Source: a virus (Duplodnaviria; Caudoviricetes). Taken from it: 54,099 nt of DNA. A model generated the notes under the pieces. The model did not search any database. It saw only the letters and a program-made list of their open reading frames with translations, and was not told the DNA's origin. The stretch's first letter is position 1, and each line of letters begins with the position of its first letter. Both the position numbers and the translations under genes were made by a program. Below, piece after piece: positions 9,301-41,900 of the stretch. Where the stretch lies: the IMG/VR virus record IMGVR_UViG_3300025102_000038, positions 1 through 54,099 of that record; one strand, 5' to 3'.

Positions 9301-10331
9301 CAAAAGAAGCTTTCTTTGAAACATTCCCTCTAAGAGAAGCTCTTGAAACATTTGCAGGTTCTAATTTTAGAACTGGTGTAGCAGGTAATTTTGTAGATGA
9401 GTTTGCAAAACTACTTACAGAACAAGATGTAACACAGGGAGAAAGACTTACTGATGCAGGTGTGGCTGCTTTTTCAGAATACCTTGCATCTTGGGCAGTG
9501 CCTATGAACCAAGTTATAGATGCACAAAGAGCTTTAGAAGCTAGAGGTACAGTCTATAAAGAGACTTCTAAAGATCCTGAAATTTTAAATTTGGGTAGCA
9601 CTGCTTTAGAAGCATTTACAAAACCTTTTAGAAGACTAGACCCAACAGGTATATTAGTTAATGAAGAAGAGTTACCTGTAAAAGAAGATATATTCCAAGA
9701 GACAAAAGAACGTAAAGGATCTTTATACAAAGTTCTTACTGGTATAAATATGTATAGTGAAGAAAGTGATGTAGGTAAAAAACTTATATCTTTGGGTCTG
9801 ACCAAGTGGGATCTACAAAGTAAATCAAAGATACCTACAATAAAAAATTATGAGAACAAAATTATAAGAGAAAACTTAGATAAGGTACTGGCAGTAGCAG
9901 AAAGATATGCTGACATTGCAGGTAGAGAGTATGAAAGCAGAAGGGATGAGTTGTCCTCAGGATTCTTTGGGGGTATCAGCAAAAAGAAATTTGTAAACAT
10001 GCGAATAAAAGATCAAGTAATAAAGCAAGTAGATAGCCTAAGAGGAGATCCTAGAAATCTGTCTGTTATTGATGACAAGAGTAAAAGAATAGACTTGTTT
10101 TTACAGAGAGAGTATAGAAGGCTACCTACAAATGTAAAAACACAAGCCTATTATAAATTTAAAGGAAGGTATGACAGATTTCCGTTTGCCTTTACTAAAG
10201 ACTACTTTAGATCTCGATATCAAAACTATGATACATACACACAGGAGCAGAAGGATAGGGTGAAAGCTAGAGAAAAACAAAGAGATTTAAATAACCTAAC
10301 TGCCATTGGTAAATACATAGCAGGTCAATAA
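6321..10331 (+). CDS. large internal virion/ejection protein (1336 aa)
   Basis: size, helical composition, last gene of the structural arm, FVPFPRF motif. Confidence 0.65.
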   Translation: MDEEDFKMDYNIGGLDTKEQTDTNTNVVDDDDEDFKMDYNMGADEEAPSNQNSSHIKDTSQNSTNEHLTDNDQVPNVEVDVDKNRSLLDLGVDGVKYTAKYAPPDMANFATSPREWSSIPKGMTAAASNIMEFLGDLDQASYKLFGVWTWGGDGDNKWEFTDVLPQWVAPWRTEELKKYYKEENKRGHTFHALANAFDKSQEVFPEEYETGTAGFTFEASRFLTGLKGIEKTFKITKANKFFSKDRFKNMLSGEALTGYIIFGKDDEGLGDMLKLAGLNIPEALTQSGWDDTNDEVWVRRALGAVEGIFTGALLDSELYKGIGSVVKLVKGKEKAIKEKVKTGTISDETNKEIDDAMEEIESIDVEKGVEQAKTWKLKDDTVSQARKRIEKAQNATANRTNMQRMNNEQVVNKNVGYYNNLVREFEENLSINKNNGLKRGDDGFFTISNMENNKLVIDKDKITRLRKQILTAKEEKQKYSLSGQIAARSTIEGYEMGEGSIDYILDPDQIGNITADELDALSTRVLDTENIEALTTVAVELKNAYPNKWKNNQSVMENIFRLSTMNELTIAKDHPLWQALDKAGMSFEDFVTAHLGSASEAGRTLQKYSTLSKRLKPKTQKQRQDNMIKRQGWFGTYFRRVENIRRGLLVSQIATAARNLESGLIRSPVESLNNIIEVGLQDIAQGKFFANNRVFQRTTWQDSFANLRYIYSDRELAKGFTDILLNQPELQKFNNQMFNTINEIQVSTGRGSGTATDKVLSKMEDFTLALNAPNRWQDFLLRRATFLGEARRLFRQKMGVDLIEELENGRLKDLLRDAKDLNKTLDQEDGGVSAIELFAEATERALDLTYSSAPEVPLNKSIASFIVNNNLTVFVPFPRFMFKSMELMAENSAGALIVPIRRMIPESLGGQKGGLTQRDYRMISRNLTGGSAIMAATYLQTQKEEGEDYKLLKLDDGTMIDTTPLFPLRQFMFLGKIGREFWRATYDVGEGAAAKEAFFETFPLREALETFAGSNFRTGVAGNFVDEFAKLLTEQDVTQGERLTDAGVAAFSEYLASWAVPMNQVIDAQRALEARGTVYKETSKDPEILNLGSTALEAFTKPFRRLDPTGILVNEEELPVKEDIFQETKERKGSLYKVLTGINMYSEESDVGKKLISLGLTKWDLQSKSKIPTIKNYENKIIRENLDKVLAVAERYADIAGREYESRRDELSSGFFGGISKKKFVNMRIKDQVIKQVDSLRGDPRNLSVIDDKSKRIDLFLQREYRRLPTNVKTQAYYKFKGRYDRFPFAFTKDYFRSRYQNYDTYTQEQKDRVKAREKQRDLNNLTAIGKYIAGQ

Positions 10332-23135: not shown

Positions 23136-24136
23136 GAATATACTCCTTCTAATATGTGCGAGATCACTGCACGAGTGAAGCCATTGCCGATCATCTTGTA
23201 GCGTTGGCTGTTTGATATAGGCTTGAGTTTGTGTACCCGAAACCCCATGTGTTTATCCTGCTCGACAAACTGTCCATACTCTGTCCATCCATCAGGCAAA
23301 GTCTGTAGACGCTCACATTCTAAAGGTGTTAATGCTCTCCAATGTAGCTCGTCTGTCTCTACCTTGGGCATTCGCCATCCACCTTGCATGGTAGTCAGGG
23401 TAGGACTCTTGCCTTGCCTAGAGTACACACGCTTGATGATGTCATAGCCTTTGAGGTCAGCTTCACCGACTTGCTTACAACCTTTGTGATTGAAGACTAC
23501 TTGTCTACGAGACTTCTCAAAGTACATCTTCATGCTACCACCTTTGAAGTAGTTGGCATCAATGCAGTAGGACTTGTCTCTATCTGCCATAGCACCATCT
23601 TCTAGCACATCATTGAGTACGATGCCCATGTCAGCTAACTCGTCATGTGGTGAGTTAGTTATGTAGACACGCTTTCTCTCCTGACCTGTCACCTTGCCAC
23701 TGTTGTGAGATCGCATCTGTGCATCTGGACGTATGGCACTGATACGCTTGTACCACTCATGCTTGGCTTTGGACTCGACATTCTCAAACAGATAGAACTC
23801 TGGGTTCAAACCTTCCAATGCATCATACATAACCTCAGACAAGTCACGACTATCTGAAGTGCCAAGCTGTTTACCTGCCACGCTGTAAGGCTGACAAGGG
23901 AAACCTGCGATCAGAAGAAAGACATCTCTGCCCAACAGTTCTCGCCAACCATTGGCATCGCCATGATGTATGGCATGAGGTATGTTATGTTTGGACACAG
24001 CACTAGCATACTTGTCTGTTTCGAATGTGTGATACTCGTAGTCACCATCAGGTGATACATCAATACCTGCATCAAGGCATGAGAGGTAGGCACTGTCTGT
24101 GCCACCACACAAACTAACTACTATCTTTTTCGTCAT
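23132..24136 (-). CDS. C5 cytosine DNA methyltransferase (orphan)
   Basis: GFPCQ catalytic motif, ENV, Q.R.RVY, TP.ECERLQT, YKMIGNG. Confidence 0.9.
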   Translation of the reverse strand: MTKKIVVSLCGGTDSAYLSCLDAGIDVSPDGDYEYHTFETDKYASAVSKHNIPHAIHHGDANGWRELLGRDVFLLIAGFPCQPYSVAGKQLGTSDSRDLSEVMYDALEGLNPEFYLFENVESKAKHEWYKRISAIRPDAQMRSHNSGKVTGQERKRVYITNSPHDELADMGIVLNDVLEDGAMADRDKSYCIDANYFKGGSMKMYFEKSRRQVVFNHKGCKQVGEADLKGYDIIKRVYSRQGKSPTLTTMQGGWRMPKVETDELHWRALTPLECERLQTLPDGWTEYGQFVEQDKHMGFRVHKLKPISNSQRYKMIGNGFTRAVISHILEGVYS

Positions 24137-24302
24137 TAGCACTCTCCTTTCTTAAATCGTTTATCATGTTTACCCACTTAGACATCTCTTGCTGATGCCT
24201 AAGTTGGGCTTCTTTCTCACGTTTGTCCTGCACAATCTGCGACTTCTTACGCAGGATGTGAGGATTGCGTGGCTTCCACGCTTTGATCTTCTTGTTAGCC
24301 AT
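24114..24302 (-). CDS. small basic protein
   Basis: KPRNP motif; coupled ORF. Confidence 0.55.
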   Translation of the reverse strand: MANKKIKAWKPRNPHILRKKSQIVQDKREKEAQLRHQQEMSKWVNMINDLRKESANDEKDSS

Positions 24303-24303
24303 G

Positions 24304-25161
24304 TTAAGCCACTACCAACTGCTTGAAGGTAGGTGAGTCTACCCACTTGGCAACCTCTTGCTCTCGCTTGAACAGGGTGACTTCTCTGGTATCCTTACCA
24401 GTGTTCCTGATCTTGAAGTTGTTTCTCTCGTCACCATAGGTAGCGTAGTTGGTGAAAGCACTGTACAGTGAGAATACATTCTCACCCCTAGTATGAGACT
24501 CGTCTTTGTACAAGGAGAACATTTTCTCTGCCTTCTTCTCAGAAGGTATTATCTTGGACAAGATACTTGGCACATCAAGACTAGCAAGATTTATCTTGCC
24601 CCAAGTATTGAGCCTACCCATACGATCAGAGAAGTCTGTGTACCCATCGTATAGTCTCTTCTCCAGACCACCGATGGTAAAGTTAGAAGTGTTCTTACAC
24701 TTCGTCATGTCATACTCACCTGTGATCATACCATTGGTGCAGAAGAAGTCGATAGCACCAAAGTAAATCAGATTACCACATGTACCATCCACACCATGCA
24801 ACGCAATGATACGATAGCCTGTCTTGGTCTTGTGACCATTGTTGGTAACGATATCATAAGTCACATTAGGTAATGTGATATCCATTCGTAGCCAACCACC
24901 ACCATGAGCAGATCGGAAGGCTACAGTCATACCTTCTAGCTGTTCGGGTGTATGGTTGTCACGGACAACCTTGTAGACAGAAGAGCAGAATGCTCTGTGT
25001 CCTGCAGGGCTAAAGCCCTTGCCCATATGAGCAATGACATCGCCAGTCACAGGGTTGACCACAAACTTGTGACCTTCCATCCGTGACTTCTCGTACTGAG
25101 GTACGAAATCACAGATCTCTGGAAGTTGTTGGATTGTGTTAGGTGTAAAATCTAAAGCCAT
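24304..25161 (-). CDS. DUF932-like early protein
   Basis: H..DG....,FFCTNGM, YSAFTNYAT motifs; GAAAGGAG RBS. Confidence 0.75.
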   Translation of the reverse strand: MALDFTPNTIQQLPEICDFVPQYEKSRMEGHKFVVNPVTGDVIAHMGKGFSPAGHRAFCSSVYKVVRDNHTPEQLEGMTVAFRSAHGGGWLRMDITLPNVTYDIVTNNGHKTKTGYRIIALHGVDGTCGNLIYFGAIDFFCTNGMITGEYDMTKCKNTSNFTIGGLEKRLYDGYTDFSDRMGRLNTWGKINLASLDVPSILSKIIPSEKKAEKMFSLYKDESHTRGENVFSLYSAFTNYATYGDERNNFKIRNTGKDTREVTLFKREQEVAKWVDSPTFKQLVVA

Positions 25162-25181
25162 AATTGACTCCTTTCTCTTGG

Positions 25182-25421
25182 TTAATGATAAGTTGGCATC
25201 TCAGGATGCTGTTCATAGACATAGCCTACGTCTGGCTCTGAGTCAAGTAGATACTCTTTTACAAAGAGAAACTCTACCTTGGCATCAGGATAGCAAGACC
25301 TAGTTACGTCCAATGCGTAGTTAATTGCAGATGAACTGTCCATAATGGTGGGGTACGAGTAAGACACTCGCACCACACCCTTCTGTTCATCTACGGATAC
25401 AAAGACCTCGTAGTGGATCAT
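25182..25421 (-). CDS. hypothetical protein
   Basis: 79-aa ORF in early operon. Confidence 0.6.
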   Translation of the reverse strand: MIHYEVFVSVDEQKGVVRVSYSYPTIMDSSSAINYALDVTRSCYPDAKVEFLFVKEYLLDSEPDVGYVYEQHPEMPTYH

Positions 25422-25423
25422 TG

Positions 25424-25738
25424 TTAGGCTACCTTCTTCTGGATGAGGAAGGACTTGATTGGCACATATTGTGCCACTCTTCGCTTGCCCTTTCTATCGT
25501 AGGCATGGAAGCAAGAGTAACTCTTGCCAAAGTTCAAGCGAACCAAAGGTTCACCTGACTTGCCACCTTTACCCTTACGGATAAACCATCCTGTCTCTTG
25601 GACTTTGTCATTCCTGTAGATGACAGGCTTGTAGCCTTGTAGCTTCAGCTTGATTGCTGTAGCAATAATTTTGATGGCAGTGAAACCACCAGAGATTTTT
25701 GTGCCTTTTGGCAAGTTGTCAAAGTTAAATGTAAGCAT
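25424..25738 (-). CDS. basic hypothetical early protein
   Basis: GAAAGGAG RBS; 104 aa. Confidence 0.7.
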   Translation of the reverse strand: MLTFNFDNLPKGTKISGGFTAIKIIATAIKLKLQGYKPVIYRNDKVQETGWFIRKGKGGKSGEPLVRLNFGKSYSCFHAYDRKGKRRVAQYVPIKSFLIQKKVA

Positions 25739-25763
25739 GGTAATGCTCCTTTCTGTGTTGTGT

Positions 25764-25782
25764 CTCCCAACAATGTCGGGAA
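25764..25782. repeat. near-palindromic element copy 1 (TCCCAACAATGTCGGGA)
   Basis: five copies in the same orientation within 25.7-28.9 kb. Confidence 0.9.
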
Positions 25783-25800
25783 ACGTTGGGTTTATGTACC

Positions 25801-25847
25801 ACAGTTATATAGTACTTTCACTAAAGTTCAAGTACTATATTAACTGT
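25801..25847. promoter_or_regulatory. long hairpin with loop TCACTAAAGTTC
   Basis: stem TATAGTACTT/AAGTACTATA plus outer ACAGTTA/TAACTGT. Confidence 0.75.
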
Positions 25848-26244
25848 ATACTCTAATGAGAGGTCTTCCCTCTCTTATCATGAGCTTGACCATCGTCATG
25901 TCATTGCCCACTGTCTCACCTGTATCTTCGTAGACAAAGGTGGTGTTCTTGTATGGATTGTACGTCACATTTCTCCACGTTTTACCTGAGTAGTAGTAAT
26001 CGTCCCACTCTTCAGCCGTAAACTTGTAGGGTCTATACCCTACAGCAAAGGCATGGACATTCTTCTTGCCCTCTTCAATGACACGCTTACGTCCCCCTTG
26101 TCTTACGACAAAGCTAGGGTTGGTAAGAAATACGTCATTGGTTCGGTCAATCACACGGTTAGTCTTGTAGTCCTGTAAGGAATACATACCCTTGTGAATA
26201 TTCCAATATGCTCTTACGAATTGATCATACATAGTCACCTCCAA
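25840..26244 (-). CDS. conserved phage hypothetical protein
   Basis: YWN.HK..YS, FVVRQGGRKRV..EGKKNVHAF, VTYNPY motifs. Confidence 0.75.
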   Translation of the reverse strand: MEVTMYDQFVRAYWNIHKGMYSLQDYKTNRVIDRTNDVFLTNPSFVVRQGGRKRVIEEGKKNVHAFAVGYRPYKFTAEEWDDYYYSGKTWRNVTYNPYKNTTFVYEDTGETVGNDMTMVKLMIREGRPLIRVYS

Positions 26245-26521
26245 AAGTTATAGTTGTTTCTCTCAAGCTACTATAAGTAGCTCCTACTGGTACAATTACC
26301 TTGTGTCCTTCAGACCATAGGTGTTCACCTATAGACTTCCAAGCTTCTTCCAGATAATAGTCAAGATCTGTATAGAATATACAGAGAGGATACTGCTTAA
26401 CTTTGTTAAGCCTTGTTGTACCTTCATCATAGGCATAGATATCATATGCCCACTTCTTTGCTATATAGGACAAAGACCTACTATGATCAAGAGGTAATTC
26501 GTCTTGAAATACTATCATCAT
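26225..26521 (-). CDS. hypothetical protein
   Basis: AAGGAGTAGC-ATG junction. Confidence 0.65.
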   Translation of the reverse strand: MMIVFQDELPLDHSRSLSYIAKKWAYDIYAYDEGTTRLNKVKQYPLCIFYTDLDYYLEEAWKSIGEHLWSEGHKVIVPVGATYSSLRETTITFGGDYV

Positions 26522-26522
26522 G

Positions 26523-26663
26523 CTACTCCTTTGCGTCTATGGAATCTTCAAGAACTTGTTTAAGTTCTAGTAGAACAGCTAAAGTAAACTCATCTCTGAT
26601 GAGATACTTTACCTCATGTATTTTATTTTTCTGCACAATAATTTTATCTTCATTGTCCATCAT
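26523..26663 (-). CDS. hypothetical protein (46 aa)
   Basis: GAAAGGAGTAGC-ATG junction; MMDNEDKIIVQKNK... Confidence 0.6.
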   Translation of the reverse strand: MMDNEDKIIVQKNKIHEVKYLIRDEFTLAVLLELKQVLEDSIDAKE

Positions 26664-26664
26664 G

Positions 26665-26823
26665 CTACTCCTTTCTGCTTGAGTTTATTTCTATTTCAGT
26701 TAAAAGATACTCTTGTTCAGTTATATAAGAATAACTTTCAAGAAACTCTTCCTTCGATAGTTGATGAAAATCAACCATCTTTTCTGCATCATCAGAAAAA
26801 TCTTTGTATTCAACGTCAGTCAT
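26665..26823 (-). CDS. small acidic protein (52 aa)
   Basis: GAAAGGAG RBS; MTDVEYKDFSDDAEKMVDF...EEFLESYSYITEQEY. Confidence 0.65.
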   Translation of the reverse strand: MTDVEYKDFSDDAEKMVDFHQLSKEEFLESYSYITEQEYLLTEIEINSSRKE

Positions 26824-26904
26824 TATGCTACTCCTTTCTGACGTAGTCTAAGTTTACGGACAAGCCTTCTCTCTCTAAGAGAGTTGTGCTTATCCCTTCT
26901 GTCA

Positions 26905-26923
26905 TTCCCAACATTGTCGGGAA
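26905..26923. repeat. near-palindromic element copy 2 (TTCCCAACATTGTCGGGAA)
   Basis: identical to copy at 27754. Confidence 0.9.
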
Positions 26924-26970
26924 ACACTTTCCTCTTCTTGGAAGAGGAAGCATTCTTTTGAAAGTTAATA

Positions 26971-27732
26971 TTACTTTGTGTCATTTGCTATCTCCGATGC
27001 TTTAGCTTTTCTGTTACCATGTGCAGGGAAACCAATAATGGTTTCTCTGTGAGACATAGCACAGAGTTTACATTTAGCACAGTCCATATCGTCCCGATAT
27101 GTAGCAGGACAGACTGTGACCTTCTTCCCCTTCGGGGTCTTGATGTTCCACAGATCAACTCTTGATCTGTACTCATCATAAGTCTCTGACCAGACACCTT
27201 TCTTGACATGCTTTCTTTCGTAGAAAGATGGCATGACAGCAGTGACTGGAGCAGGTTTGTGTCCAAAGGACACAAGTTCTGCCAAGTCATCAGCATGAGA
27301 CATGCTGTTACCTGACAAGTTAATGACAAAGCTTGCTTGTTTGTTACAGACCATGACTATCAGTCTATTCATAGGATCTGACATGTCATGATGAGTATAA
27401 GTGAAGCCTTTCTTGCCACCAAGTCTACAAGCTTCTTCAAGCTTGAAGACCTTATCAGCATCAATCTCCCCATTCTTATGGGGAAGATCTCCTGCTTGAT
27501 TATGTCTCCACAAAGCTGTGGCTTTGTCCTGTACTGTCTGACAAAAGTCATCCCAGTCAAGACCAATGTCTGGAACTCTGTTCCAGTGTCCCTTCAAAGG
27601 GTAGCCATCTGCATAGCAACCCTTTCTTCTTAGAGGACAAGAGGTAGGACAAGAGTCCTCTTCAGTCGTACTGACTGAAATCTCACCAGTCTTGATATTC
27701 GATGACTTCAAAGTCAAGTGAACTTTACTCAT
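26971..27732 (-). CDS. Cys-rich early protein (Gp88-like, possible metal/Fe-S binding)
   Basis: CPTSCP....CYA, RHNQAGD, FTYTH, INLS, CPA.....C..C.LC, FPAHG. Confidence 0.7.
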   Translation of the reverse strand: MSKVHLTLKSSNIKTGEISVSTTEEDSCPTSCPLRRKGCYADGYPLKGHWNRVPDIGLDWDDFCQTVQDKATALWRHNQAGDLPHKNGEIDADKVFKLEEACRLGGKKGFTYTHHDMSDPMNRLIVMVCNKQASFVINLSGNSMSHADDLAELVSFGHKPAPVTAVMPSFYERKHVKKGVWSETYDEYRSRVDLWNIKTPKGKKVTVCPATYRDDMDCAKCKLCAMSHRETIIGFPAHGNRKAKASEIANDTK

Positions 27733-27753
27733 TTTAAACTCCGTTTAAGTTGC

Positions 27754-27772
27754 TTCCCAACATTGTCGGGAA
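27754..27772. repeat. near-palindromic element copy 3
   Basis: TTCCCAACATTGTCGGGAA, about 21 nt upstream of ATG 27732. Confidence 0.9.
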
Positions 27773-27799
27773 TGGTTTCGGTTTGGTCGGCACTAAAGT

Positions 27800-27863
27800 C
27801 TATAACACTAATAGAAATATAACACCTTCACTAAAGTTCAGGTGTTATATTTCTGTGTTATAG
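27800..27863. promoter_or_regulatory. long hairpin with loop TCACTAAAGTTC
   Basis: 15-bp stem AGAAATATAACACCT/AGGTGTTATATTTCT plus outer CTATAACAC/GTGTTATAG. Confidence 0.8.
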
Positions 27864-27886
27864 TCTAAGTCTCTTCGGCAATCAAG

Positions 27887-27967
27887 TCATAGTCTGAATC
27901 CCCCACTAAGCCAATAGCAATAAAAAAAGACTAGCATAAATGCTAGTATCAAAAGTAAACAAGTCAT
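27887..27967 (-). CDS. putative 26-aa membrane peptide
   Basis: GGAG RBS; MTCLLLILAFMLVFFYCYWLSGGFRL. Confidence 0.4.
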   Translation of the reverse strand: MTCLLLILAFMLVFFYCYWLSGGFRL

Positions 27968-28040
27968 AGTTTAATCTCCGATTAAAAGGGTTGAAACAAA
28001 AAAAAGAGCATAGCACCTTAGTGCTATACTCTTTAGGTGA

Positions 28041-28775
28041 AAGGTAGCTTACGCTACCTTCCTCTTCTTCTGAGAAACCTTTGGTTTCTCTTGTGAAGCA
28101 TGGTGCAACTCTATGAGTTGCAGTATAACCTCTTCGAGGTTAAGTTGCTTCTTAGAAGCAAGTTCAGCAGTGAACTGAGCCAAACCCTTGGGGTTTGTAG
28201 GGACTTTAACCTTGGTTAACTTCTTTACAGAAGTTACCTCATTCCCAACATTGTCGGGATTGACCTCAACCTTTGGTTGAGACTGAGAAGTCGTAGACTT
28301 CTTCTTGGAAGCCTTTGGCTTCTTCCTTGTTGAGAAGTCACCGACTTCTTCAACAAATGCTCTTTTCATCGCTGAAAGCGATGTAAAGCCAAGGGATTGT
28401 TTTCCACTAGTGAGAACTCTGTTCTCAAGCCAAGCAGTGATTTGATCATGGTTCTTATAGAACCATAATGTTTCACTTCTCCTCTGAGAAGTGAGTTTGT
28501 TCAGAGAACACTCTTCCAATCTCTGATTGGAGATCCTGCCGTATTTGCTTTCCAAGCAAAGCTCATCGATCAGCTTACCAGTTTGGTAAGCTAGTCCACC
28601 AGACTGAGTATCAGTCTTGTGAAGCTTGGAATGCTCTAACAGAAACTGAGCAGTTTCTGAAGCAATGACAGCTCCCCTAGCTTCAAAAGTACCACTGTAC
28701 TTTTGGAAAGCTTGAGGTTTCTTAGAAACCTTAGGAGCAACTTTAGTTGCTTTAGCAGAGTTGCTCTTTAGAGCA
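28041..28775. repeat. tandem array of short inverted repeats inside coding sequence
   Basis: 28 hairpins (5-9 bp stems, 2-4 nt loops) read directly from the sequence. Confidence 0.92.
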
Positions 28776-28804
28776 GTTACGAGTTTGGATTTTGTGTTTG
28801 GCAT
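28049..28804 (-). CDS. first early gene, Lys/Ser-rich protein of unknown function
   Basis: 251-aa ORF with GAAGGAGG RBS. Confidence 0.75.
   Translation of the reverse strand: MPNTKSKLVTALKSNSAKATKVAPKVSKKPQAFQKYSGTFEARGAVIASETAQFLLEHSKLHKTDTQSGGLAYQTGKLIDELCLESKYGRISNQRLEECSLNKLTSQRRSETLWFYKNHDQITAWLENRVLTSGKQSLGFTSLSAMKRAFVEEVGDFSTRKKPKASKKKSTTSQSQPKVEVNPDNVGNEVTSVKKLTKVKVPTNPKGLAQFTAELASKKQLNLEEVILQLIELHHASQEKPKVSQKKRKVA
28243..28259. repeat. near-palindromic element copy 4 (intragenic)
   Basis: TCCCAACATTGTCGGGA. Confidence 0.9.
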
Positions 28805-28878
28805 TTTGCCCTCCTTCTATTAATTGGTTAACACATTTGTAAACAAATGTTGTGTTAACCAATTACTAGGGTTGCCGA

Positions 28879-28896
28879 TCCCAACAATGTCGGGAA
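28879..28896. repeat. near-palindromic element copy 5
   Basis: TCCCAACAATGTCGGGAA upstream of first early gene. Confidence 0.9.
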
Positions 28897-28959
28897 TGGA
28901 TCATACCCCCTTGGGGTATGTTTTTGGATGACCAAAGAATGACCATAGGCTTTAGCCTA

Positions 28960-29260
28960 AACCTAATTTTTTCAGAAATCTTGACCTCAATCGACTGATT
29001 GCCTATGGCAACTGATGTGATAACAGTTGCTTTTAAAAACAAACTCGTTTGTTTTCAAGGCGATGGGCATTCCAAGGTGCATTGCGATGCACAATTTGCG
29101 TTCACCACGCATCGGGATGCACGATTTTACCTGCATCGGGCATCGGGACGCATGGGGAAGGGGGGGTGCGTCAGATATATACATATATAAATACACAGAT
29201 TAGGAAAAATGAGTGTTAACCACTTTGGTACGGATATAGACAGGGGTGTCAAATAATTGG
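28960..29260. other. strand-switch region; candidate genome terminus/packaging or origin site
   Basis: non-coding, GC-rich GCATCGGG repeats and G-run followed by AT-rich tract, between divergent arms. Confidence 0.45.
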
Positions 29261-29262
29261 TA

Positions 29263-29291
29263 TTGACTACTAAAAGCATACATGATATAAT
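29263..29291 (+). promoter_or_regulatory. sigma70-type promoter for the late arm
   Basis: TTGACT-17 nt-TATAAT. Confidence 0.75.
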
Positions 29292-29428
29292 TATATAAAC
29301 TAGGATGACATATTAAGTGTTACATTAAAATGTTTATTCAATATAAATAAATAATCACTTACATGTAACATATTAAATGTATGTCTATATAGGGATTTAT
29401 CCGTACTTTTTTAAATTAATGTTTGACA

Positions 29429-29638
29429 ATGGGAAAAAAATCCGTAAAACTATACACAGATAATGTAATTGAAGAGTTTTATTCTGCTGTGGCTAATAAC
29501 AACTTAAATAAATTACATATACCTCACAGTGATGTTTTCTACGTAAGAGCCGCAGTGGAAGCCCACTATGGCAGATCTTTTACTTTGAAAGAGGTAGAAG
29601 ACGCTATGATAGCTGAAGGTTGGTCAGACCATAAATAG
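29429..29638 (+). CDS. hypothetical protein
   Basis: first ORF of plus arm; HIPHSDVFYVR; start uncertain. Confidence 0.55.
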   Translation: MGKKSVKLYTDNVIEEFYSAVANNNLNKLHIPHSDVFYVRAAVEAHYGRSFTLKEVEDAMIAEGWSDHK

Positions 29639-29648
29639 GAGCAAAACT

Positions 29649-29942
29649 ATGGTAATGAAAAAAGATAAAATGAAGAAAAAAGGCATGGCAGTGGGAGGAC
29701 TCAAAAAACCTGCAACAGGAGCTAAAGGACTAAAGAAGTTGCCTACACCTGTACGTAATAAAATGGGCTACATGAATAAAGGTGGCACAATGAAGAAGAA
29801 GGGTATGGCTCGTGGTGGAGCTATGAAGAAAAAAGGTTACGCAAAAGGTGGAGCAATGAAAAAGTACGGCACTATGTATAAAGCAGGTGGTGCTGTGGCA
29901 GGAAAAAAGTACGGAATGATTGACAAGAAGAAGAAGAAATAG
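29649..29942 (+). CDS. Lys/Met/Gly-rich repeat protein with five xxxGG motifs
   Basis: AGGAG RBS; MKKKG[MY]AxGG repeats. Confidence 0.8.
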   Translation: MVMKKDKMKKKGMAVGGLKKPATGAKGLKKLPTPVRNKMGYMNKGGTMKKKGMARGGAMKKKGYAKGGAMKKYGTMYKAGGAVAGKKYGMIDKKKKK

Positions 29943-29957
29943 TATAATTATGTCACT

Positions 29958-30668
29958 ATGGCATATTTACAAAGTAACATTCCGTATTTCAAAGCTTGGG
30001 TAAGACGAGAGTATACCTGTAACTTTGAAAAATATTATGGCGAGTTTTTACACTGCATGGTTATAGCTGTAACAACTATGCCAAATAGGTCACTCAGCTT
30101 TCAAGTTATATTTACTGGCTGTGAGACTGACGATACTGACGAACCAAATGTGCATGGTGGAGCTATGTGGGCTAGAATGCCTATCACAGCCCTAGTAGGA
30201 GACACTCCTGTAGAAGACTGGGCTGAAGAAATGCCACCCTACATAGCACAACCTTGGGATTGTATGTCCCATGATCATAGTGTGTATGTATTAGACAGAG
30301 CTACACCTGCACCGTGGATAGCAAAAGTGGATGGAGAGTTCTATCCTGCTAAATATTACTTTACTGTGGACTACACAAACAGTGAGATAGCTGATGATCC
30401 TGCACAACATAAGCAGTCACACGTACTAGAACTGATGGATGCAGGTAAATACACAGGAAACATTGTGGCATTACCTAATAATAGAGTCAGAGTGACACAT
30501 CCTGCATGGTTTGAAGCAGGAGAAGGACCACCTGACTTTAGACCCTCCCAAAGAATCTTTCATTCAAAGCAAGAAACGGAATATGTGTGGGATACTGGAA
30601 GAGTATTCAATAACTTATATGCAAAGGAAAAGAAAAATGGCAGCAACACCAAGAAAAAAAGTAAATAA
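29958..30668 (+). CDS. conserved phage protein of unknown function
   Basis: globular 236-aa ORF with PWDC, YYFTVD, HKQSH, LPNNR motifs. Confidence 0.75.
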   Translation: MAYLQSNIPYFKAWVRREYTCNFEKYYGEFLHCMVIAVTTMPNRSLSFQVIFTGCETDDTDEPNVHGGAMWARMPITALVGDTPVEDWAEEMPPYIAQPWDCMSHDHSVYVLDRATPAPWIAKVDGEFYPAKYYFTVDYTNSEIADDPAQHKQSHVLELMDAGKYTGNIVALPNNRVRVTHPAWFEAGEGPPDFRPSQRIFHSKQETEYVWDTGRVFNNLYAKEKKNGSNTKKKSK

Positions 30669-30918
30669 AGTTATAAAAGGATTAAAAAAAGCTACAAAGT
30701 TACACTCGCAACAAGCTAAGTCTTTATCTACTTTAAAATTAAGTAAAGGTGGTAGCACTGTAAACAAAGCAGGTAACTATACCAAGCCCGGAATGAGAAA
30801 AAGAATGTTCTCAGCCATAAAAGCAGGGTCAAAGGGTGGTAATCCCGGACAGTGGTCTGCAAGAAAGGCACAATTACTAGCAGCACGCTACAAAAAAGGT
30901 GGTGGGGGCTATAAGTAA
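30637..30918 (+). CDS. small basic protein
   Basis: NYTKPGMRKR...GQWSARKAQLLA..YKK.GGGY. Confidence 0.75.
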   Translation: MAATPRKKVNKVIKGLKKATKLHSQQAKSLSTLKLSKGGSTVNKAGNYTKPGMRKRMFSAIKAGSKGGNPGQWSARKAQLLAARYKKGGGGYK

Positions 30919-31217
30919 TGGCTGACCCTAAGGTTGGCACAGGCAAAAAGCCTAAAGGAAGTGGTAGAAGACTCTACACGGATGAGAATCCTAAGGATAC
31001 AGTGAGTATCAAGTTTGCTACGGTAGAAGATGCAAAGAAAACTATTACAAAAGTTAAAAAGATTAACAAACCCTATGCGAGGAAGATACAAATCCTCACC
31101 GTTCTTGAACAACGAGCTAGGTTTGCAGGAAAAACTGAGCAAGCTGCCCTTGCAAAGAAGGCAAAAGAGCAACTAAGGAGACAACATGGCACTAGCAAAA
31201 AGTCAAAGAAGTCTTAA
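30918..31217 (+). CDS. small basic protein
   Basis: LYTDENPKDTV.IKF...EQRA motif. Confidence 0.75.
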   Translation: MADPKVGTGKKPKGSGRRLYTDENPKDTVSIKFATVEDAKKTITKVKKINKPYARKIQILTVLEQRARFAGKTEQAALAKKAKEQLRRQHGTSKKSKKS

Positions 31218-38805: not shown

Positions 38806-38956
38806 TTATATAGGGTTCTTGATAGTACAGAATCACGCTATTATGGAGCAGACAAACGACTTAGTCACACTTCATAGATCACAAGGTGCTATCGCTATGC
38901 TAAGACGATTACGACAACTAAGGGATCATGTAAACTCCAATGGGTCTACTAAGTAA
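38711..38956 (+). CDS. small conserved protein after portal
   Basis: HRSQGAI..LRRL motif. Confidence 0.65.
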   Translation: MNNNNQNNPQINLYSKLKPLVNNKDHWDSFSDYIGFLIVQNHAIMEQTNDLVTLHRSQGAIAMLRRLRQLRDHVNSNGSTK

Positions 38957-41900
38957 AGCTGTAAAACAGGGATTAATAGACAATCCCCAAATCATTACTA
39001 AGAAACAGGATGAAGTTGCTAAAGAAGCAAAGGATAGGGCTGACTTAAATGCAAACGATCCTAACACAAATCCTGATGTGTATGATGAGCAGATGGCAGA
39101 TCCTAATGTGTCTAAGATCACAGTGCCTGAAGATCCCACTCCTATTCTTGGAAGTATGTATGGAGACTTAGTGCAAACATTTGAGTCCATGCCCTTTTAC
39201 GGAAAAGAGACAATATCAGGAGCAAACTTTGTAGAACAGTTAAATTATTATGTAAAAAATATTCAAGGCAGAAATATACCATTGTATAAATTTATGGAGA
39301 AGCGAGGAGCTTTTAAAAAATTTAGAGACAATCCCAAAAAACAATTTACAAAAAAAGAAATATTAGATTCTTTAAAAGACTTTTCTTCTTTTGAATTTAG
39401 AATAAGAGTGGATAAAGATACATTATACCGACCTCAACAAAGACTACCTATTGATGAGAGTGCAGGAGATTATAAAAAAGTAGGTTATGCTGAAGTAACT
39501 TTACATGCTCCCATAGATAATACTGTACCTTCAATACAAAAATTTGCAGACAAACACTTTAAGGGAAATACTATAGGACACACTAGATCTTCTTTTGTGT
39601 ATAACAATAAAACTAAAGAGTCGGCTGTTATGCCTGAAGAGGTACAAGGAGATCTTTTTCAAAACATTGGAAAAACAGTAGATGTTACAAGAGATAGATT
39701 AACTAACATACCTACATATGATAATTTTCAAGAGACAACTTTGGTTGGTAATCAAACAATGAGTTTAGTAGGTATTAGAGCAGATACTACACTAACTAGA
39801 TCTGAATCCCCTAGTTGGTTTGCTACTTCATTTATAGCACCTACTCGATCTTATAACAACCTAAAAGAAAATTTAAGGCTTGAATATTTTCTTATGGAAG
39901 ATAATGCAATGCTACTTAATAGGATAAAAGAAGGTAGAGTTCCACTAAATGAAGAAGTTGCTAATGCCATAGGAAGAGATAAAGGTATAATGAACATTGG
40001 CTCTCCAGATGCAACAAGCAGGATGGATGAAAACAAAAGTAGATTTATATCACAATTATTTGCTAAAGGTTTTTCACCAAAACAAATTAGAGAAAGGCTA
40101 GAAAAATATTTTTCTAAATCTAGTTCTGAACTAAAAGGTGAAAGTTTAACTGAAAGACAGATACAATCATTTTTAAGAAAAGAGAAACAAAATAAAATAG
40201 ACCATTATAAAGAAGTATTTAATAAAAATTTTATTGGTATTGGAGAGGAAGCTCAAGATATTAGTGGTGGCACTATAACTGCATTTAGTGAGTTACCTAG
40301 ATTAGGTGCATTAATAGATAAATTAGAAAAAAATTATGCAACAGGTTCGGCTGAAAGACAACCTTTTTTTACATTGCGATATATGCAAAGTTCTCTTTAT
40401 GAAACTCTAAGAAATTTAGAACTTGGAGAATCATTTGACGATATAACGGATTTTTCTCAATTTAAAAGTTACGAAAAACTAAGAAAGTTAAATGCACAAA
40501 AATTAAAAGATATTCAAAACACTATGCCTAGAACAATGGTATCTGGTTATGACTATAGAAATCCTAGTGCGATACCTGTATTTATGCAACGTTTTGCTGC
40601 TCATGGTTTTAACATGACAGAGAGAACAGATATGATTAATAGTATTCTTTCTAAATATAATTTAAATTATTTTAGAGGTGCAAATATAAGAAAGGGTCAT
40701 CAAGACGGACAGGTAAATGATGGTGAGAGAGATAGATTTTTAACTGATGGTTCTACTAATTATGCAGGGCAAATAAAATATCCTGATGGTTCTATTAAAA
40801 CTTATATGAATGCCAATGAAAGATTTTTAAGATATTTTGATGAAATAAATGAAGATAGACAAATAGGAGCTTCTACTTGGTCTGACCACCATCCTGAATA
40901 TCAAGAGCATTTAATTCAAGAAGAATTTAAGTTACCTGATTTTGAAGATGCATATCCAAACATATCACAACCTTTACCTTACAATTTTGAAGACACTAAA
41001 AAAAGAATGAAAAAAATTGTTGACGATTTAAATGAACAATACAAAGCTATAAATGAAGCCAGACAAGAGTTTAGCAAAAATTATATGAAAGCTTTTGAAG
41101 AGGATAATTTACATAATATACCAGTAGATCCTTTTGGAGATGCAGGTCCTTTTTCTTATACCCGACTCACAAATGTTACTATGTGGAGAGAGACTAAAAA
41201 TAAAGCAGTAGTAGGAAAAGATGCAGGTGACTATGGACGTTACTATGATGATACAATTAGTCCTCCACAAAAAGAAGTTATATCTACTGACTATGAACAA
41301 AATTTTATAGATAATCAAAATGCTGTTACACAGGAACGAGATGCTTACAATAGAAAAGAAGATGAAATTACAGATTTAGAAAATGATCCACGATTGAATG
41401 ACCCATCTGGTGATGATGGTCTTTCTGAACAACTAGACGAGTTATACAATGATCTATCCGATATAGCACTAGATATAGATAAGGCAGAAGAAAGAATGTT
41501 AAGAGATTTAACAGCAAAAAATATAGGCAATTTTGCTACACTCTTTGACCCTTTTGAACATGTATTTGATCCGAAACAAATAAATGAACTAAAGTTAATT
41601 GACTTTGATGAAATAGTAGATGACTATGGAACAGAAAAAGATCCTAGATTTGGTGCAAGCTTTGTTGCTCATGTAATGCGTGAAGTTACAAAACAAGATT
41701 ATTTAAATGGTTTAAATGATTTTGGTTATACTGTGTTTAGTGAGCTAGATATGAATAGATTAAAAAATACTCTTAGTAGTGTCGAAGCCAGAAAAACTTC
41801 TATGGAATCATATCAAAGATTAGAGGATCTGTCATATAACCCATTAAAGAAAGATGACTATATTACAAAAGGTTTAAACAGGGTTGTAGAAAAAGATGAT

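What the first reader, a model, noticed from the sequence alone, without database searches (positions are those of the whole stretch)
28041..28775. First early gene is tiled end to end with short perfect hairpins
Seen in sequence: within the 251-aa ORF I count 28 back-to-back inverted repeats, about one per 26 bp, nearly all with different sequences. Examples: AAGGTAGC-ttac-GCTACCTT (28041), GAGAAACC-ttt-GGTTTCTC (28072), TGCAACTC-tat-GAGTTGCA (28104), TAACCTC-ttc-GAGGTTA (28126), TTGCTTC-tta-GAAGCAA (28145), CAAACCC-ttg-GGGTTTG (28181), CTCAACC-ttt-GGTTGAG (28265), CATCGCT-gaa-AGCGATG (28367), ATGGTTCT-tat-AGAACCAT (28448), TCACTTCTC-ctct-GAGAAGTGA (28473), AGCTTACCA-gtt-TGGTAAGCT (28572), CAAAAGTAC-cact-GTACTTTTG (28684). 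A rough estimate for random DNA is about one 6-bp tight hairpin per kb. The architecture is shared but not the sequence, and it coexists with an open reading frame. Inference: this end of the genome is selected to fold as a single strand. Options are protection of ssDNA exposed during entry or terminus processing, a cruciform/decoy array, or an mRNA shielded from host nucleases or guide-based defences. I know of no description of this in a dsDNA podovirus.
Basis: partly seen in the sequence, partly recalled or inferred. Interest (0 to 1): 0.95.

Follow-up and report, generated by a model that had tools for sequence, protein, structure and literature searches.

The report
Hairpin-tiled early genes of marine phage
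The first 5 kb of early genes of this abundant type of marine phage are overlaid with dozens of different short hairpin-forming sequences that evolution keeps intact, most likely so that the first messenger RNAs fold tightly, a layer of selection not described for this phage group.

Summary
The 251-aa ORF (28049..28804, minus strand) holds 25 perfect inverted repeats (stem ≥6, loop ≤6). Synonymous shuffles give 3.6±1.8.

The dense zone runs from about 29250 down to 24267. It has 16.6 hairpins per kb, against 1.81 per kb in the rest of the window, and its limits are sharp. It covers several real genes of an HMO-2011-type podovirus.

- **Not an artefact.** Twenty DNA runs from 12 studies hold the stretch, and independent contigs cover it.
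- **Selected.** Close relatives keep the hairpins. Third-codon sites vary half as often in stems as outside them, and paired double substitutions occur.
- **A force on the zone.** Conserved genes carry 12-14 hairpins here, against 1-2 in homologues elsewhere.
- **Family trait.** Weaker versions occur in CRP-1, HMO-2011 and other lineages. All of these also carry the first-gene protein family.

Best reading (confidence 0.45): selected local structure of the early mRNAs that shields them from host factors needing single-stranded RNA. The strand evidence is moderate. G·U-dependent hairpins are enriched more in the sense orientation, but whole-gene folding energies show no asymmetry. DNA-level roles, protein-binding sites and mutational origin remain open. 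A repeated palindrome cassette upstream of the early genes is a second finding.

The parts
24267..29250 (-). Hairpin-dense zone: 83 perfect inverted repeats (stem 6-9, loop mostly 3) laid over the early-arm genes and their leader
   Evidence: 16.6 per kb against 1.81 per kb outside. Loop lengths: 3 nt in 35 of 83, 2 nt in 18, 4 nt in 18. The closing pair is 5'Y-R3' in 62 of 83, against 36 of 87 in the background.
28049..28804 (-). First early gene (gp1 family, 251 aa), the densest part: 25 hairpins, 33 per kb
   Evidence: Homologous to CRP-1 gp01 (30% identity, E 1e-13). The family has 2419 hits with E<=1e-3, all unnamed and without Pfam domains.
28805..29290 (-). Non-coding leader and control region upstream of gene 1. 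It is structured and hairpin-rich and holds short CCCGATGC-type repeats.
   Evidence: RNA fold z-score -6.21. No Rfam family reaches its gathering score.
28003..28034 (-). Terminator-like hairpin (14 pairs plus a T run) directly after gene 1
   Evidence: consensus scan only
27930..27947 (-). Second terminator-like hairpin after gene 1
   Evidence: consensus scan only
28878..28895 (-). Repeated 18-nt palindromic motif, copy 1, 73 nt upstream of the gene 1 start
   Evidence: 5 sites (10 matches, each found on both strands), against 0.04 matches expected by chance. On the minus strand it folds as an 8-pair stem with a conserved G.T/G.U pair and a 3-nt loop.
28242..28259 (-). Motif copy 2, inside gene 1, where it encodes the nearly invariant ..NVG.. 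of the gp1 linker
27754..27771 (-). Motif copy 3, 21 nt upstream of the DUF7227 gene start
26905..26922 (-). Motif copy 4, 81 nt upstream of the next gene start (26823)
25764..25781 (-). Motif copy 5, 25 nt upstream of the gene start at 25738
26971..27732 (-). DUF7227 gene carrying 14 hairpins
   Evidence: Pfam PF23872, E 5.4e-71. It has 14 hairpins, against 1.7 in synonymous shuffles. Homologues in L014 and L015 have 1 each.
24304..25161 (-). Last gene of the zone (285 aa, conserved across the family), carrying 12 hairpins
   Evidence: mean 1.99 and maximum 5 in 78 other loci, against 12-13 in the window lineage. No extra amino-acid divergence at stem codons.
27817..27851 (.). 35-nt repeat with TGTTATA (extended -10-like) arms, a candidate internal promoter. 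It lies in a hairpin-free gap (27749-27929).
   Evidence: The promoter role is inferred.
25807..25841 (.). Second copy of the 35-nt repeat, in the hairpin-free gap 25667-25857
29263..29311 (.). Divergent sigma-70-like promoter matches: + strand 29263-29291 (11 of 12 matches, with TG) and - strand 29311-29282 (9 of 12). The hairpin zone begins just downstream of these on the minus strand.
   Evidence: consensus scan; the total number of matches is no higher than in shuffles

Best explanation
The window is an HMO-2011-type marine podovirus. Its early arm is the minus-strand genes from the divergent control region near 29300 down to the 285-aa gene ending at 24304. This arm is overlaid with about 80 different mini-hairpins with stems of 6-9 bp and loops of mostly 3 nt. 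The hairpins are real and are kept by selection on the nucleotide sequence; both points are shown. They have been written into genuine, in part conserved, protein genes, mainly through synonymous and tolerated positions, and with no detectable protein cost in the one conserved gene tested; this is also shown. The molecule that folds is most probably the early mRNA; this is inferred, from moderate evidence. The likely effect is an RNA of 'beads on a string' form that folds as it leaves RNA polymerase. Such an RNA offers no long single-stranded stretch, apart from the ribosome-binding sites, to host factors that need one: RNase E-type decay and Rho loading. This would matter most before any phage protein has been made, which is inferred and untested. 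The window's lineage is the extreme form of a trait seen in every family lineage examined that carries the gp1 first-gene family.
For: **Excess over chance.** Gene 1 has 25 hairpins, against 3.6 in synonymous shuffles. The DUF7227 gene has 14, against 1.7.

**Selection.**
- Seven relatives at 92-98% protein identity keep 25-29 hairpins each.
- In gene 1, variable sites make up 6.3% of stem positions (26 of 412), 13.7% of unpaired positions (56 of 408) and 18.5% of loop positions (15 of 81).
- Over the whole zone, third-codon sites vary at 11.8% in stems (30 of 255) against 21.7% outside (165 of 762).
- Paired double substitutions that keep the pair occur in 4 hairpins (28601-28617, 28217-28236 twice, 28072-28090, 26266-26282), plus one doubtful case. 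RNAalifold recovers the hairpins from 8 sequences and finds 3 pairs changed on both sides.
- Among stems with >=8 pairs, 24 are perfect and only 8 carry one mismatch.

**A force on the zone, not gene history.**
- The conserved 285-aa gene has 12-13 hairpins here, against a mean of 1.99 and a maximum of 5 in 78 other loci.
- The DUF7227 gene has 14 here, against 1 in homologues elsewhere.
- Stem codons are no more diverged from the family consensus than other codons: 51.9% against 47.9% overall, and 5 of 22 against 24 of 104 at conserved columns.

**Architecture.** Loop length peaks sharply at 3 nt, the closing pair is biased to 5'Y-R3', and loops are A-rich in the sense strand (A 107, T 57, G 51, C 30). 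The same trends appear, more weakly, in 5 other lineages.

**Fit to transcripts.**
- The zone begins just downstream of promoter-like sites.
- Its hairpin-free gaps fall at the putative internal promoters.
- It ends at a gene border, and density rises again in the last gene rather than falling steadily.
- Of the 12 start-codon regions (-20..+10), 11 are free of stems. In the twelfth, the GGAG sits across the loop.

**Strand.**
- Hairpins containing G.U, 7 lineages: sense 124 against 64.6+-6.5 in shuffles; antisense 89 against 74.7+-9.4.
- Stricter G.U-dependent hairpins, 6 lineages: sense 64 against 41.8+-5.8; antisense 46 against 43.8+-6.1.
- A second set of 19 non-redundant zones, G.U-dependent: sense 124 against 78.6+-8.0; antisense 100 against 83.0+-6.6.

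**Plausibility of the role.** Rut sites lie in C>G regions of limited secondary structure, with an optimal length of 60-90 nt, and Rho silences horizontally acquired A/T-rich DNA (PMC12360218, passages read). Masking single-stranded RNase E sites by duplex formation stabilises mRNAs during infection by a marine phage (PMC3113571, abstract read).
Against: - **No strand asymmetry in gene 1 itself.**
  - Whole-gene folds: RNA sense -292.8 kcal/mol (z -11.4), RNA antisense -294.2 (z -13.5), DNA sense -165.2 (z -17.7), DNA antisense -163.0 (z -19.5).
  - Hairpins containing G.U in gene 1: 4 in each orientation.
  - First mismatch outside the stems: G.T 17 against A.C 16.
  - Single changes in relatives: G.U in sense 15 against A.C 12.
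- **Weaknesses in the strand tests.**
  - The window's own sense excess is largely its 5 copies of the repeated motif.
  - In the larger set the antisense orientation is also enriched (z about 2.6).
  - Per locus, the sense count is higher in only 11 zones, lower in 7 and equal in 1.
- **Perfect Watson-Crick stems dominate.** That suits DNA, or an origin by copying, at least as well as RNA.
- **No stem effect at non-coding positions.** Stems there are no less variable than other sites: 10.8% (19 of 176) against 10.8% (90 of 835).
- **Only a small difference in predicted unpaired stretches.** Fraction paired is 0.61 in the zone, against 0.52-0.55 elsewhere. Unpaired runs of >=30 nt number 0 per kb, against 0.23-0.49.
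- **No RNA data.** Promoters and terminators rest on consensus scans only, and the number of promoter-like matches is not above shuffles.
- **About half of the family lineages examined lack the feature**. A plain shield model does not explain this, nor why the feature tracks the gp1 family.
Confidence: 0.45

Rival explanations
1. The hairpins work at the DNA level. They fold in single-stranded or supercoiled DNA of the early arm: the non-template strand during heavy early transcription, the lagging-strand template, resected or first-entering DNA, or small cruciforms as at N4 early promoters. There they would exclude SSB, RecA or ssDNA sensors, discourage R-loops, or absorb supercoils.
For: Nearly all stems are perfect Watson-Crick, and both strands fold equally well. 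DNA-parameter z-scores are -17.7 and -19.5, larger than the RNA ones. The closing pair is 5'C..G3' or 5'T..A3', and 3-nt loops are the geometry that lets N4 promoter hairpins extrude at low superhelical density (PMC4496689, passages read). Loops are T-rich on the plus strand. The zone lies next to the divergent control region.
Against: The excess of G.U/G.T-dependent hairpins is larger in the sense orientation. N4-type extrusion needs 5'G and 3'A in the loop; here only 6 of 35 3-nt loops are G-N-A on either strand (read). Replication would expose the whole genome rather than 5 kb with sharp limits. The density profile is not a steady gradient from an end, and no physical end is shown there. 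N4 and T7 themselves have no such zone. The phage family encodes a T7 endonuclease I-type resolvase (HMO-2011 annotation), which would cut extruded cruciforms.
Confidence: 0.2
2. The hairpins are cis-sites for a structure-specific protein. The best candidate is the product of the first gene (gp1 family), which would bind hairpin RNA, hairpin DNA or palindromic DNA throughout the early arm, for regulation, protection or antitermination.
For: The gp1 family is present in 9 of 9 hairpin-rich loci and in 0 of 11 others. The two kinds of lineage are interspersed on the tree of the conserved 285-aa protein: parsimony needs 5 changes, and well-supported branches force at least 2. A palindromic motif with the same architecture (6-8 bp arms, 2-3 nt centre) recurs 4-10 times per early arm. 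One copy lies inside gp1, where it fixes the nearly invariant S-N-V-G of the linker. The window's gp1 has lysine-rich tails.
Against: Nothing is known about gp1's function or fold: there are no Pfam, PHROG or PDB matches, and the structure prediction could not be run. The hairpins share no sequence, so recognition would have to be purely by shape. The early module may simply be inherited as a block, which would also link gp1 to hairpins. The hairpin-rich/poor labels on the tree are not significantly clustered or dispersed (58 of 500 shuffles score as low).
Confidence: 0.12
3. The structured early RNA hides targets from guide-based or sequence-specific host defences, such as RNA-targeting CRISPR types, Argonautes and endoribonuclease toxins, rather than from housekeeping decay or termination.
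For: The structural evidence is the same as for the best explanation. Linkers between perfect stems in gene 1 are at most 28 nt (read), which is shorter than typical guide footprints (recalled). Early transcripts are the first phage molecules a defence system can see.
Against: No host and no defence system is identified. No spacer or toxin-site analysis was possible. The trait is present in only about half of the lineages, and no host information links the trait to a defence system.
Confidence: 0.08
4. The hairpins are a mutational by-product. Template switching within quasi-palindromes during replication or repair of this region keeps converting imperfect repeats into perfect ones, and the hairpins themselves have no function.
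For: The stems are perfect. Paired double changes could come from single conversion events. A 21-nt insertion in one relative is itself a new hairpin unit resembling its neighbour. Template switching between short inverted repeats is an established source of multinucleotide changes (PMC8604942, abstract start seen in the listing).
Against: The architecture is narrow: loop length peaks at 3 nt, stems are 6-9 bp, and the closing pair is biased. The zone has sharp borders at a promoter region and a gene end. Start-codon regions are kept free of stems. Hairpins are retained at the same places across 3-8% nucleotide divergence, with stem third-codon sites half as variable as others. Perfect stems far outnumber one-mismatch stems. 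The G.U excess is biased to the sense orientation. A purely mutational process would still need a reason to act on these 5 kb only.
Confidence: 0.08
5. The feature is an assembly, amplification or chimera artefact.
For: None found.
Against: Twenty DNA runs from 12 studies hold the stretch, and independent contigs cover it with 0-3% differences. Seven IMG/VR contigs from different samples carry it with compensatory variation. The reading frames stay open, and their proteins have homologues.
Confidence: 0.01

Closest known systems
Genome-scale ordered RNA structure (GORS) in positive-strand RNA viruses
   Same: Both show pervasive, selected secondary structure laid over coding sequence. Folding energy is well below that of shuffled controls, and the positions of the structures are only partly conserved between relatives. 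In the papers PMC3950689 and PMC7642675 I saw only the titles and abstract starts, in the listing.
   Different: Here the genome is dsDNA, and only a 5-kb early transcription zone is affected. The elements are discrete, perfect mini-hairpins of 6-9 bp with 3-nt loops, not extended structure. The host is a bacterium, so the defences invoked for GORS do not apply.
Masking of RNase E sites by RNA duplexes during marine phage infection (Prochlorococcus/P-SSP7)
   Same: The principle proposed is the same: paired RNA hides single-stranded RNase E recognition sites and stabilises mRNAs during infection (PMC3113571, abstract read). P-SSP7's own left-end genes also show a mild hairpin excess of 10 and 8 per kb, against about 2 in the background.
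   Different: In that system the duplexes are intermolecular (long antisense RNAs) and protect host mRNAs. Here the pairing is intramolecular, encoded in the phage genes themselves, and its effect on decay is untested.
Hairpin promoters of coliphage N4 virion RNA polymerase
   Same: Both are small hairpins (5-7 bp stem in N4, 3-nt loop, 5'C..G3' closing pair) at the early end of a podovirus genome. N4 shows that such short hairpins can matter and can extrude from supercoiled DNA (PMC4496689, passages read).
   Different: N4 has three conserved promoter hairpins with a G-N-A loop, read by an injected 3500-aa polymerase. Here there are about 80 unrelated hairpins, mostly inside genes, and G-N-A loops are a minority. 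No virion polymerase was detected: the two giant virion ORFs have no Pfam, PHROG or PDB hits and no DxDxD motif. N4 itself shows no hairpin-dense zone.
Coding palindromes in Nematomorpha mitochondrial genes
   Same: [quoted passage not shown]
   Different: Those repeats are long (up to 284 bp), few per gene and mitochondrial, and both arms encode conserved protein. Here the repeats are 6-9 bp, number 25 per gene, and lie in a phage early operon.
Repeated regulatory stem-loop cassettes in phage early regions (T4-type 'promoter-early stem-loop' elements, T7 RNase III sites; recalled, not checked in a paper)
   Same: This comparison applies to the repeated palindrome cassette, not to the unique hairpins. 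A conserved hairpin-forming motif recurs in front of many early genes, 15-25 nt upstream of the start codon.
   Different: The motif differs from lineage to lineage. One copy lies inside the gp1 coding sequence. Its role (RNA element, operator or promoter part) is unknown.

Membership tests
N4-type hairpin-promoter early transcription | A virion-packaged RNA polymerase gene | tested here: not met
   No polymerase-like hit for any large ORF. ORFs 38940-43718 (1592 aa) and 6321-10331 (1336 aa) have 0 Pfam, PHROG and PDB matches, no DxDxD motif, and only unnamed Atlas neighbours scoring under 0.9. A very diverged polymerase cannot be excluded, because the structure prediction could not be run.
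N4-type hairpin-promoter early transcription | A few conserved promoter hairpins with a 5'G..3'A loop and a C:G closing pair, centred about 11 nt upstream of the start site | tested here: not met
   About 80 hairpins of unrelated sequence lie mostly inside genes. G-N-A loops make up 6 of 35 3-nt loops on each strand (read). The requirement is taken from PMC4496689. The 5-copy motif has an AAT or ATT loop.
Intrinsic (Rho-independent) terminators | A G+C-rich stem followed by a U run on the transcribed strand | tested here: not met
   Only 3 of the 19 terminator-like sites in 23500-29900 are on the minus (sense) strand: 28034-28003, 27947-27930 and 26603-26589. The other hairpins have no T run in the sense orientation.
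Dispersed repeat families (REP/BIME-like elements, MITEs, CRISPR arrays) | Copies that share sequence | tested here: not met
   The hairpins differ in sequence. The repeat search finds only three two-copy direct families in the whole window, none among the unique mini-hairpins; one (D2) lies in the zone and is the 35-nt promoter-like repeat. No tandem or CRISPR-like regularity was seen. Only the 18-nt motif (5 copies) and the 35-nt repeat (2 copies) are repeated.
Known structured RNA families (Rfam) | A match at the family's gathering score | tested here: not met
   The best matches in 23500-30000 score 24.2, 21.1 and 18.9 bits, against gathering scores of 57, 49.5 and 40. No tRNA or tmRNA was found.
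Selected RNA secondary structure in coding sequence (GORS-like) | Folding energy far below sequence-matched shuffles | tested here: met
   Gene 1 folded as RNA gives z -11.4. Sliding windows give z -1.7 to -8.7 in the zone, against about -0.3 to -0.8 in the flanks.
Selected RNA secondary structure in coding sequence (GORS-like) | Evolutionary conservation of pairing (fewer changes in stems, compensatory changes) | tested here: met
   Caveat: only close relatives (92-98% protein identity) could be aligned, and non-coding stems show no reduction.
Selected RNA secondary structure in coding sequence (GORS-like) | The folding molecule is the RNA (strand-specific signal such as G.U pairs) | tested here: inconclusive
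   The sense-biased G.U excess appears in three tests. There is no asymmetry in whole-gene MFE or in gene 1 counts. No RNA probing or RNA-seq is available.
Template-switch (quasi-palindrome) mutagenesis product | Arm homogenisation together with spacer inversion, arising as single events and without selection for the structure | tested here: inconclusive
   Paired double changes and a hairpin-unit insertion are compatible with it. The loop changes seen are not inversions. Reduced stem variability and the narrow architecture argue for selection.

The most novel reading that the evidence does not exclude
In one of the ocean's most abundant phage groups, the early genes have been rewritten at synonymous and tolerated sites into arrays of unique mini-hairpins. 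These would work together with the uncharacterised first-gene protein (gp1) and a lineage-specific palindrome cassette in front of each early gene. Together they would form a structure-based early-expression or counter-defence system, made of hairpin nucleic acid and a hairpin-reading protein, with no described counterpart in dsDNA phages.
Probability: 0.15. Interest if true: 0.9.

Novelty: new variant of a known kind. Interest (0 to 1): 0.8.

Why it matters
HMO-2011-type phages are described as a dominant and widely distributed marine viral group (abstract of PMC9038755, seen in the listing). The two main comparative papers on the group do not mention hairpins, inverted repeats or secondary structure anywhere in their main text.

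A strong selective layer at the nucleotide level over early genes would matter in several ways:
- It changes how these genes should be read. Synonymous sites there are not neutral, so rate and selection estimates are biased.
- It means protein evolution in these genes may be constrained by RNA or DNA structure.
- It offers a concrete and testable strategy by which a phage lacking its own RNA polymerase could secure its first transcripts in slow-growing hosts. That these hosts are poor in ribosomes is my assumption.
- It gives a handle on gp1, a very large protein family of unknown function, and on a conserved regulatory cassette.

Cultured systems exist for testing it: CRP-1 on strain FZCC0023 and HMO-2011 on IMCC1322 (records seen).

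Tried and rejected
- **Artefact:** rejected.
- **RNA evidence:** no RNA holder is listed among the sequencing runs, so nothing can be said about expression. The laid contigs cannot show molecule ends.
- **Virion RNA polymerase, N4-like:** no support.
- **Known RNA families and tRNAs:** none found.
- **gp1 function:**
  - Pfam, PHROGs, a PDB profile search, scanning 33 family members against Pfam, and the ESM Atlas gave nothing usable.
  - The nearest named cluster is DUF3102 at a score of 0.89, which is a lead only.
The one accepted job failed. So no fold, no fold search and no complex test were done.
- **Other early genes:** only an L5 gp82-like domain and domains of unknown function.
- **Start-codon regions free of stems:** real, but it does not discriminate, because a DNA palindrome also folds in its mRNA.
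- **Predicted unpaired stretches from local MFE structures:** only small differences, because any sequence folds in silico.
- **Whole-gene MFE as a strand test:** no asymmetry.
- **Hairpins as a property of gene families:** rejected for the window lineage. In other lineages, gene families shared with hairpin-poor phages show only 3.46 against 2.10 hairpins per kb.
- **A simple gradient from a genome end:** not supported.
- **Literature:**
  - Searches for this feature found nothing on phages.
  - The survey PMC13155455 has no occurrence of the word 'phage' in its main text.
  - The PNAS paper describing HMO-2011 is not held.
Full report
**What is there**

The region lies on the minus strand of a genome of the HMO-2011 type. 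DNA and protein searches hit only Roseobacter phages CRP-1, CRP-345 and relatives and Puniceispirillum phage HMO-2011.

As in those phages, two gene arms diverge from a non-coding control region. In the window this region is about 28805-29420.
- Minus-strand genes run from 28804 down to about 10000: early genes, then methyltransferase, integrase, helicase and DNA polymerase.
- Plus-strand genes start at 29423.

The ORF named in the finding (28049..28804, 251 aa) is the first gene of the early arm.

All quoted hairpins are present. The counts are as follows.

| Measure | Observed | Comparison |
|---|---|---|
| Perfect inverted repeats in the ORF (stem ≥6, loop 0-6) | 25 | synonymous shuffles 3.62±1.84 (max 9 of 300); codon permutation 1.44; dinucleotide shuffles 1.82 |
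| Zone 24250-29250 | 83 (16.6 per kb) | 89 in the other 49 kb (1.81 per kb) |
| Zone, stems ≥7 | 55 | 15 outside |

- The zone has sharp limits. There is nothing from 29500 to 31000 and nothing in 24001-24250.
- Density is stepwise by gene rather than a smooth gradient:
  - about 33 per kb in gene 1;
  - 18 per kb in the DUF7227 gene (26971..27732);
  - about 6 per kb around 25200-26250;
  - 14 per kb in the 285-aa gene 24304..25161, and then zero.
- The non-coding leader of gene 1 is also hairpin-rich and strongly structured (z -6.2).
- The architecture is narrow:
  - stems are 6-9 bp;
  - loop length peaks at 3 nt (35 of 83);
  - the closing pair is 5'-pyrimidine..purine-3' in 62 of 83, against 36 of 87 in the background;
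  - loops are A-rich on the sense strand.

**It is not an artefact**
- Twenty DNA runs from 12 studies hold the stretch.
- Contigs of four runs cover it, some identical and some about 3% different.
- Seven IMG/VR contigs carry the same gene with 25-29 hairpins each.

**It is maintained by selection**

Evidence comes from seven relatives at 92-98% protein identity.
- In gene 1, variable sites are 6.3% of stem positions, 13.7% of unpaired positions and 18.5% of loop positions.
- Over the whole zone, third-codon sites vary in 30 of 255 stem positions (11.8%) against 165 of 762 elsewhere (21.7%). First and second positions differ little. Non-coding positions do not differ at all (10.8% in both classes).
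- Double substitutions that keep the pair occur in four hairpins, one of them in two different ways. RNAalifold recovers the mini-hairpins from the alignment.
- Among stems of ≥8 pairs, 24 are perfect and only 8 carry one mismatch. That is not what decaying neutral palindromes would look like.
- One relative has a 21-nt insertion that is itself a new hairpin unit.

**It is a property of the zone, not of the genes**
- The 285-aa gene is conserved across the family. In 78 other loci it carries 0-5 hairpins (mean 1.99). In the window lineage it carries 12-13.
- The DUF7227 gene has 14 hairpins here and 1 in homologues from other phages.
- The hairpins cost the protein nothing detectable. Stem codons of the 285-aa gene differ from the family consensus as often as other codons: 51.9% against 47.9% overall, and 5 of 22 against 24 of 104 at conserved columns.

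**It is a family trait of variable strength**
- CRP-1 has 14, 11, 8 and 9 hairpins per kb in its first 4 kb. HMO-2011 has 12-13 per kb at the start of its early arm.
- Twenty-nine loci were examined: 26 viral contigs with at least 3 kb upstream of the anchor gene, the window, HMO-2011 and CRP-1. In 20 of them the point where the two arms diverge lies inside the sequence.
- Of those 20 loci, nine are hairpin-rich (three belong to the window lineage), ten are at background level, and one (L061) has hairpins only in the control region.
- Across 80 loci aligned on the 285-aa gene, the density of stems ≥7 is 1.1-2.6 per kb upstream of that gene, against 0.1-0.9 per kb downstream (mostly under 0.6).
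- T7 and the first 40 kb of N4 show nothing comparable. HTVC010P shows 9 in its first kb only. P-SSP7 shows a mild rise (10 and 8 per kb) over its first genes.

**Which molecule folds**

This is the weakest link in the argument.

*For the sense strand*
- Hairpins that contain G·U pairs exceed shuffles in the sense orientation and little or not at all in the antisense orientation.

| Test | Sense (observed vs shuffles) | Antisense (observed vs shuffles) |
|---|---|---|
| Any G·U, 7 lineages | 124 vs 64.6±6.5 | 89 vs 74.7±9.4 |
| G·U-dependent only, 6 lineages | 64 vs 41.8±5.8 | 46 vs 43.8±6.1 |
| G·U-dependent, 19 non-redundant zones found through the cassette motif | 124 vs 78.6±8.0 | 100 vs 83.0±6.6 |

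- The zone begins just downstream of promoter-like sites.
- It has hairpin-free gaps exactly where a 35-nt repeat with extended -10-like arms sits.
- Gene 1 is followed by two terminator-like hairpins.
- The zone ends at a gene border.

*Against, or neutral*
- In gene 1 both strands fold equally well as RNA or as DNA.
- Counts of hairpins containing G·U in gene 1 are equal in the two orientations.
- The first mismatch beyond the stems is G·T 17 times and A·C 16 times.
- Single changes in relatives give G·U 15 times and A·C 12 times.
- Much of the window's own sense excess comes from its five motif copies.
- In the largest data set the antisense orientation is also enriched, and the per-locus comparison is only 11 to 7.

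I therefore put about even odds on RNA as the folding molecule and about one in five on a DNA-level role.

**Likely function**

If the RNA is what matters, the array gives an mRNA that folds locally as soon as it emerges from the polymerase. Apart from the start-codon regions (11 of 12 are stem-free, and in the twelfth the GGAG sits across the loop), it leaves linkers of at most 28 nt between perfect stems in gene 1 (read).

Host factors that need long single-stranded RNA would be excluded:
- Rho prefers 60-90 nt of weakly structured, C>G RNA and silences A/T-rich foreign DNA (PMC12360218, passages read).
- RNase E sites can be masked by base pairing during marine phage infection (PMC3113571, abstract read).

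This role is inferred and nothing here tests it. It also does not explain why half of the family does without the hairpins.

**A second finding and an unexplained link**

Every lineage has its own 14-18 bp palindrome repeated 4-10 times in the early arm.
- It is usually 15-25 nt upstream of a start codon and in a fixed orientation relative to its flanks. In the window it is TCCCGACAATGTTGGGAA, present five times.
- In hairpin-rich lineages one copy lies inside the first gene, where it encodes the nearly invariant S-N-V-G of the protein's linker.
- An extended form of the motif occurs in 87 stretches of viral contigs.

The first-gene protein family (2419 hits, unnamed, no Pfam domain) is present in 9 of 9 hairpin-rich loci and in 0 of 11 others. 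The two kinds of lineage are interspersed on the tree of the 285-aa protein. Whether gp1 reads hairpins, or is merely inherited together with a hairpin-rich module, is open.

**Comparison with known systems**

The closest known systems are:
- pervasive RNA structure in RNA-virus genomes;
- duplex masking of RNase E sites;
- N4 hairpin promoters;
- coding palindromes in Nematomorpha mitochondria.

Each shares one aspect, and each fails on defining features (see the membership table). I found no description of this feature in phage papers. The two main HMO-2011-type papers contain none of the relevant words. Supplementary files and the original HMO-2011 paper could not be seen.

**Verdict**

This is a real, strong, selected and apparently undescribed feature of an abundant phage group. 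The mechanism is not settled. An mRNA shield is the best-supported reading, at a confidence of about 0.45.

Noticed in passing
window 28878-28895, 28242-28259, 27754-27771, 26905-26922, 25764-25781 (minus strand); also L053, L074, L086, L092, L032, L039, L044, L061, and HMO-2011 and CRP-1 loci: Each HMO-2011-type lineage has its own 14-18 bp palindrome, repeated 4-10 times in the early arm. It usually sits 15-25 nt upstream of a start codon, with conserved flanks (GAAAC..ACTTT in several lineages). An extended form occurs in 87 stretches of viral contigs. Its role (RNA element, operator or promoter part) is unknown.
   Followed up: partly
window 28242-28259, within ORF 28049..28804: The nearly invariant S/D-N/D-V-G in the otherwise variable linker of the gp1 protein family is encoded by a copy of that palindrome. 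The peptide conservation may therefore be a by-product of a nucleic-acid signal inside the gene.
   Followed up: partly
L099 (Prochlorococcus phage P-SSP7) 1000-3000: The first genes of this T7-like cyanophage have 10 and 8 tight perfect hairpins per kb, against about 2 per kb elsewhere. This hints that hairpin enrichment in early genes may reach beyond the HMO-2011 group.
   Followed up: no
window 38940-43718 (+) and 6321-10331 (+): Two very large ORFs (1592 and 1336 aa) in the structural arm have no Pfam, PHROG or PDB sequence match. They are probably internal or ejected virion proteins, judged by position and size; this is an inference.
   Followed up: partly
window 27817-27851 and 25807-25841: A 35-nt repeat whose inverted arms read TGTTATA (extended -10-like) lies about 45-60 nt upstream of two copies of the palindrome. 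These are candidate internal early promoters or operators.
   Followed up: no
window 29649-29942 (+): A 97-aa ORF is very rich in K, G and M (repeats of the type KKKGMA.GG). Contigs from other runs show many length variants and internal rearrangements here: joints skipping 89-194 nt, and goes-back joints, at 29628-29851.
   Followed up: no
window 29040-29160 (minus strand): The leader of gene 1 holds three similar short hairpin-forming units built around CCCGATGC/GCATCG. They could be iterons or operator sites.
   Followed up: no
L004 near 2950 (aligned to window 28072): A 21-nt insertion relative to the window is itself a hairpin unit that resembles the neighbouring hairpin. This suggests that units can arise by local duplication.
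   Followed up: partly
loci L019-L096: Many IMG/VR contigs of this family begin within 0.1-2 kb upstream of the conserved 285-aa gene. This may reflect assembly breaks in the hypervariable, hairpin-rich early module.
   Followed up: no
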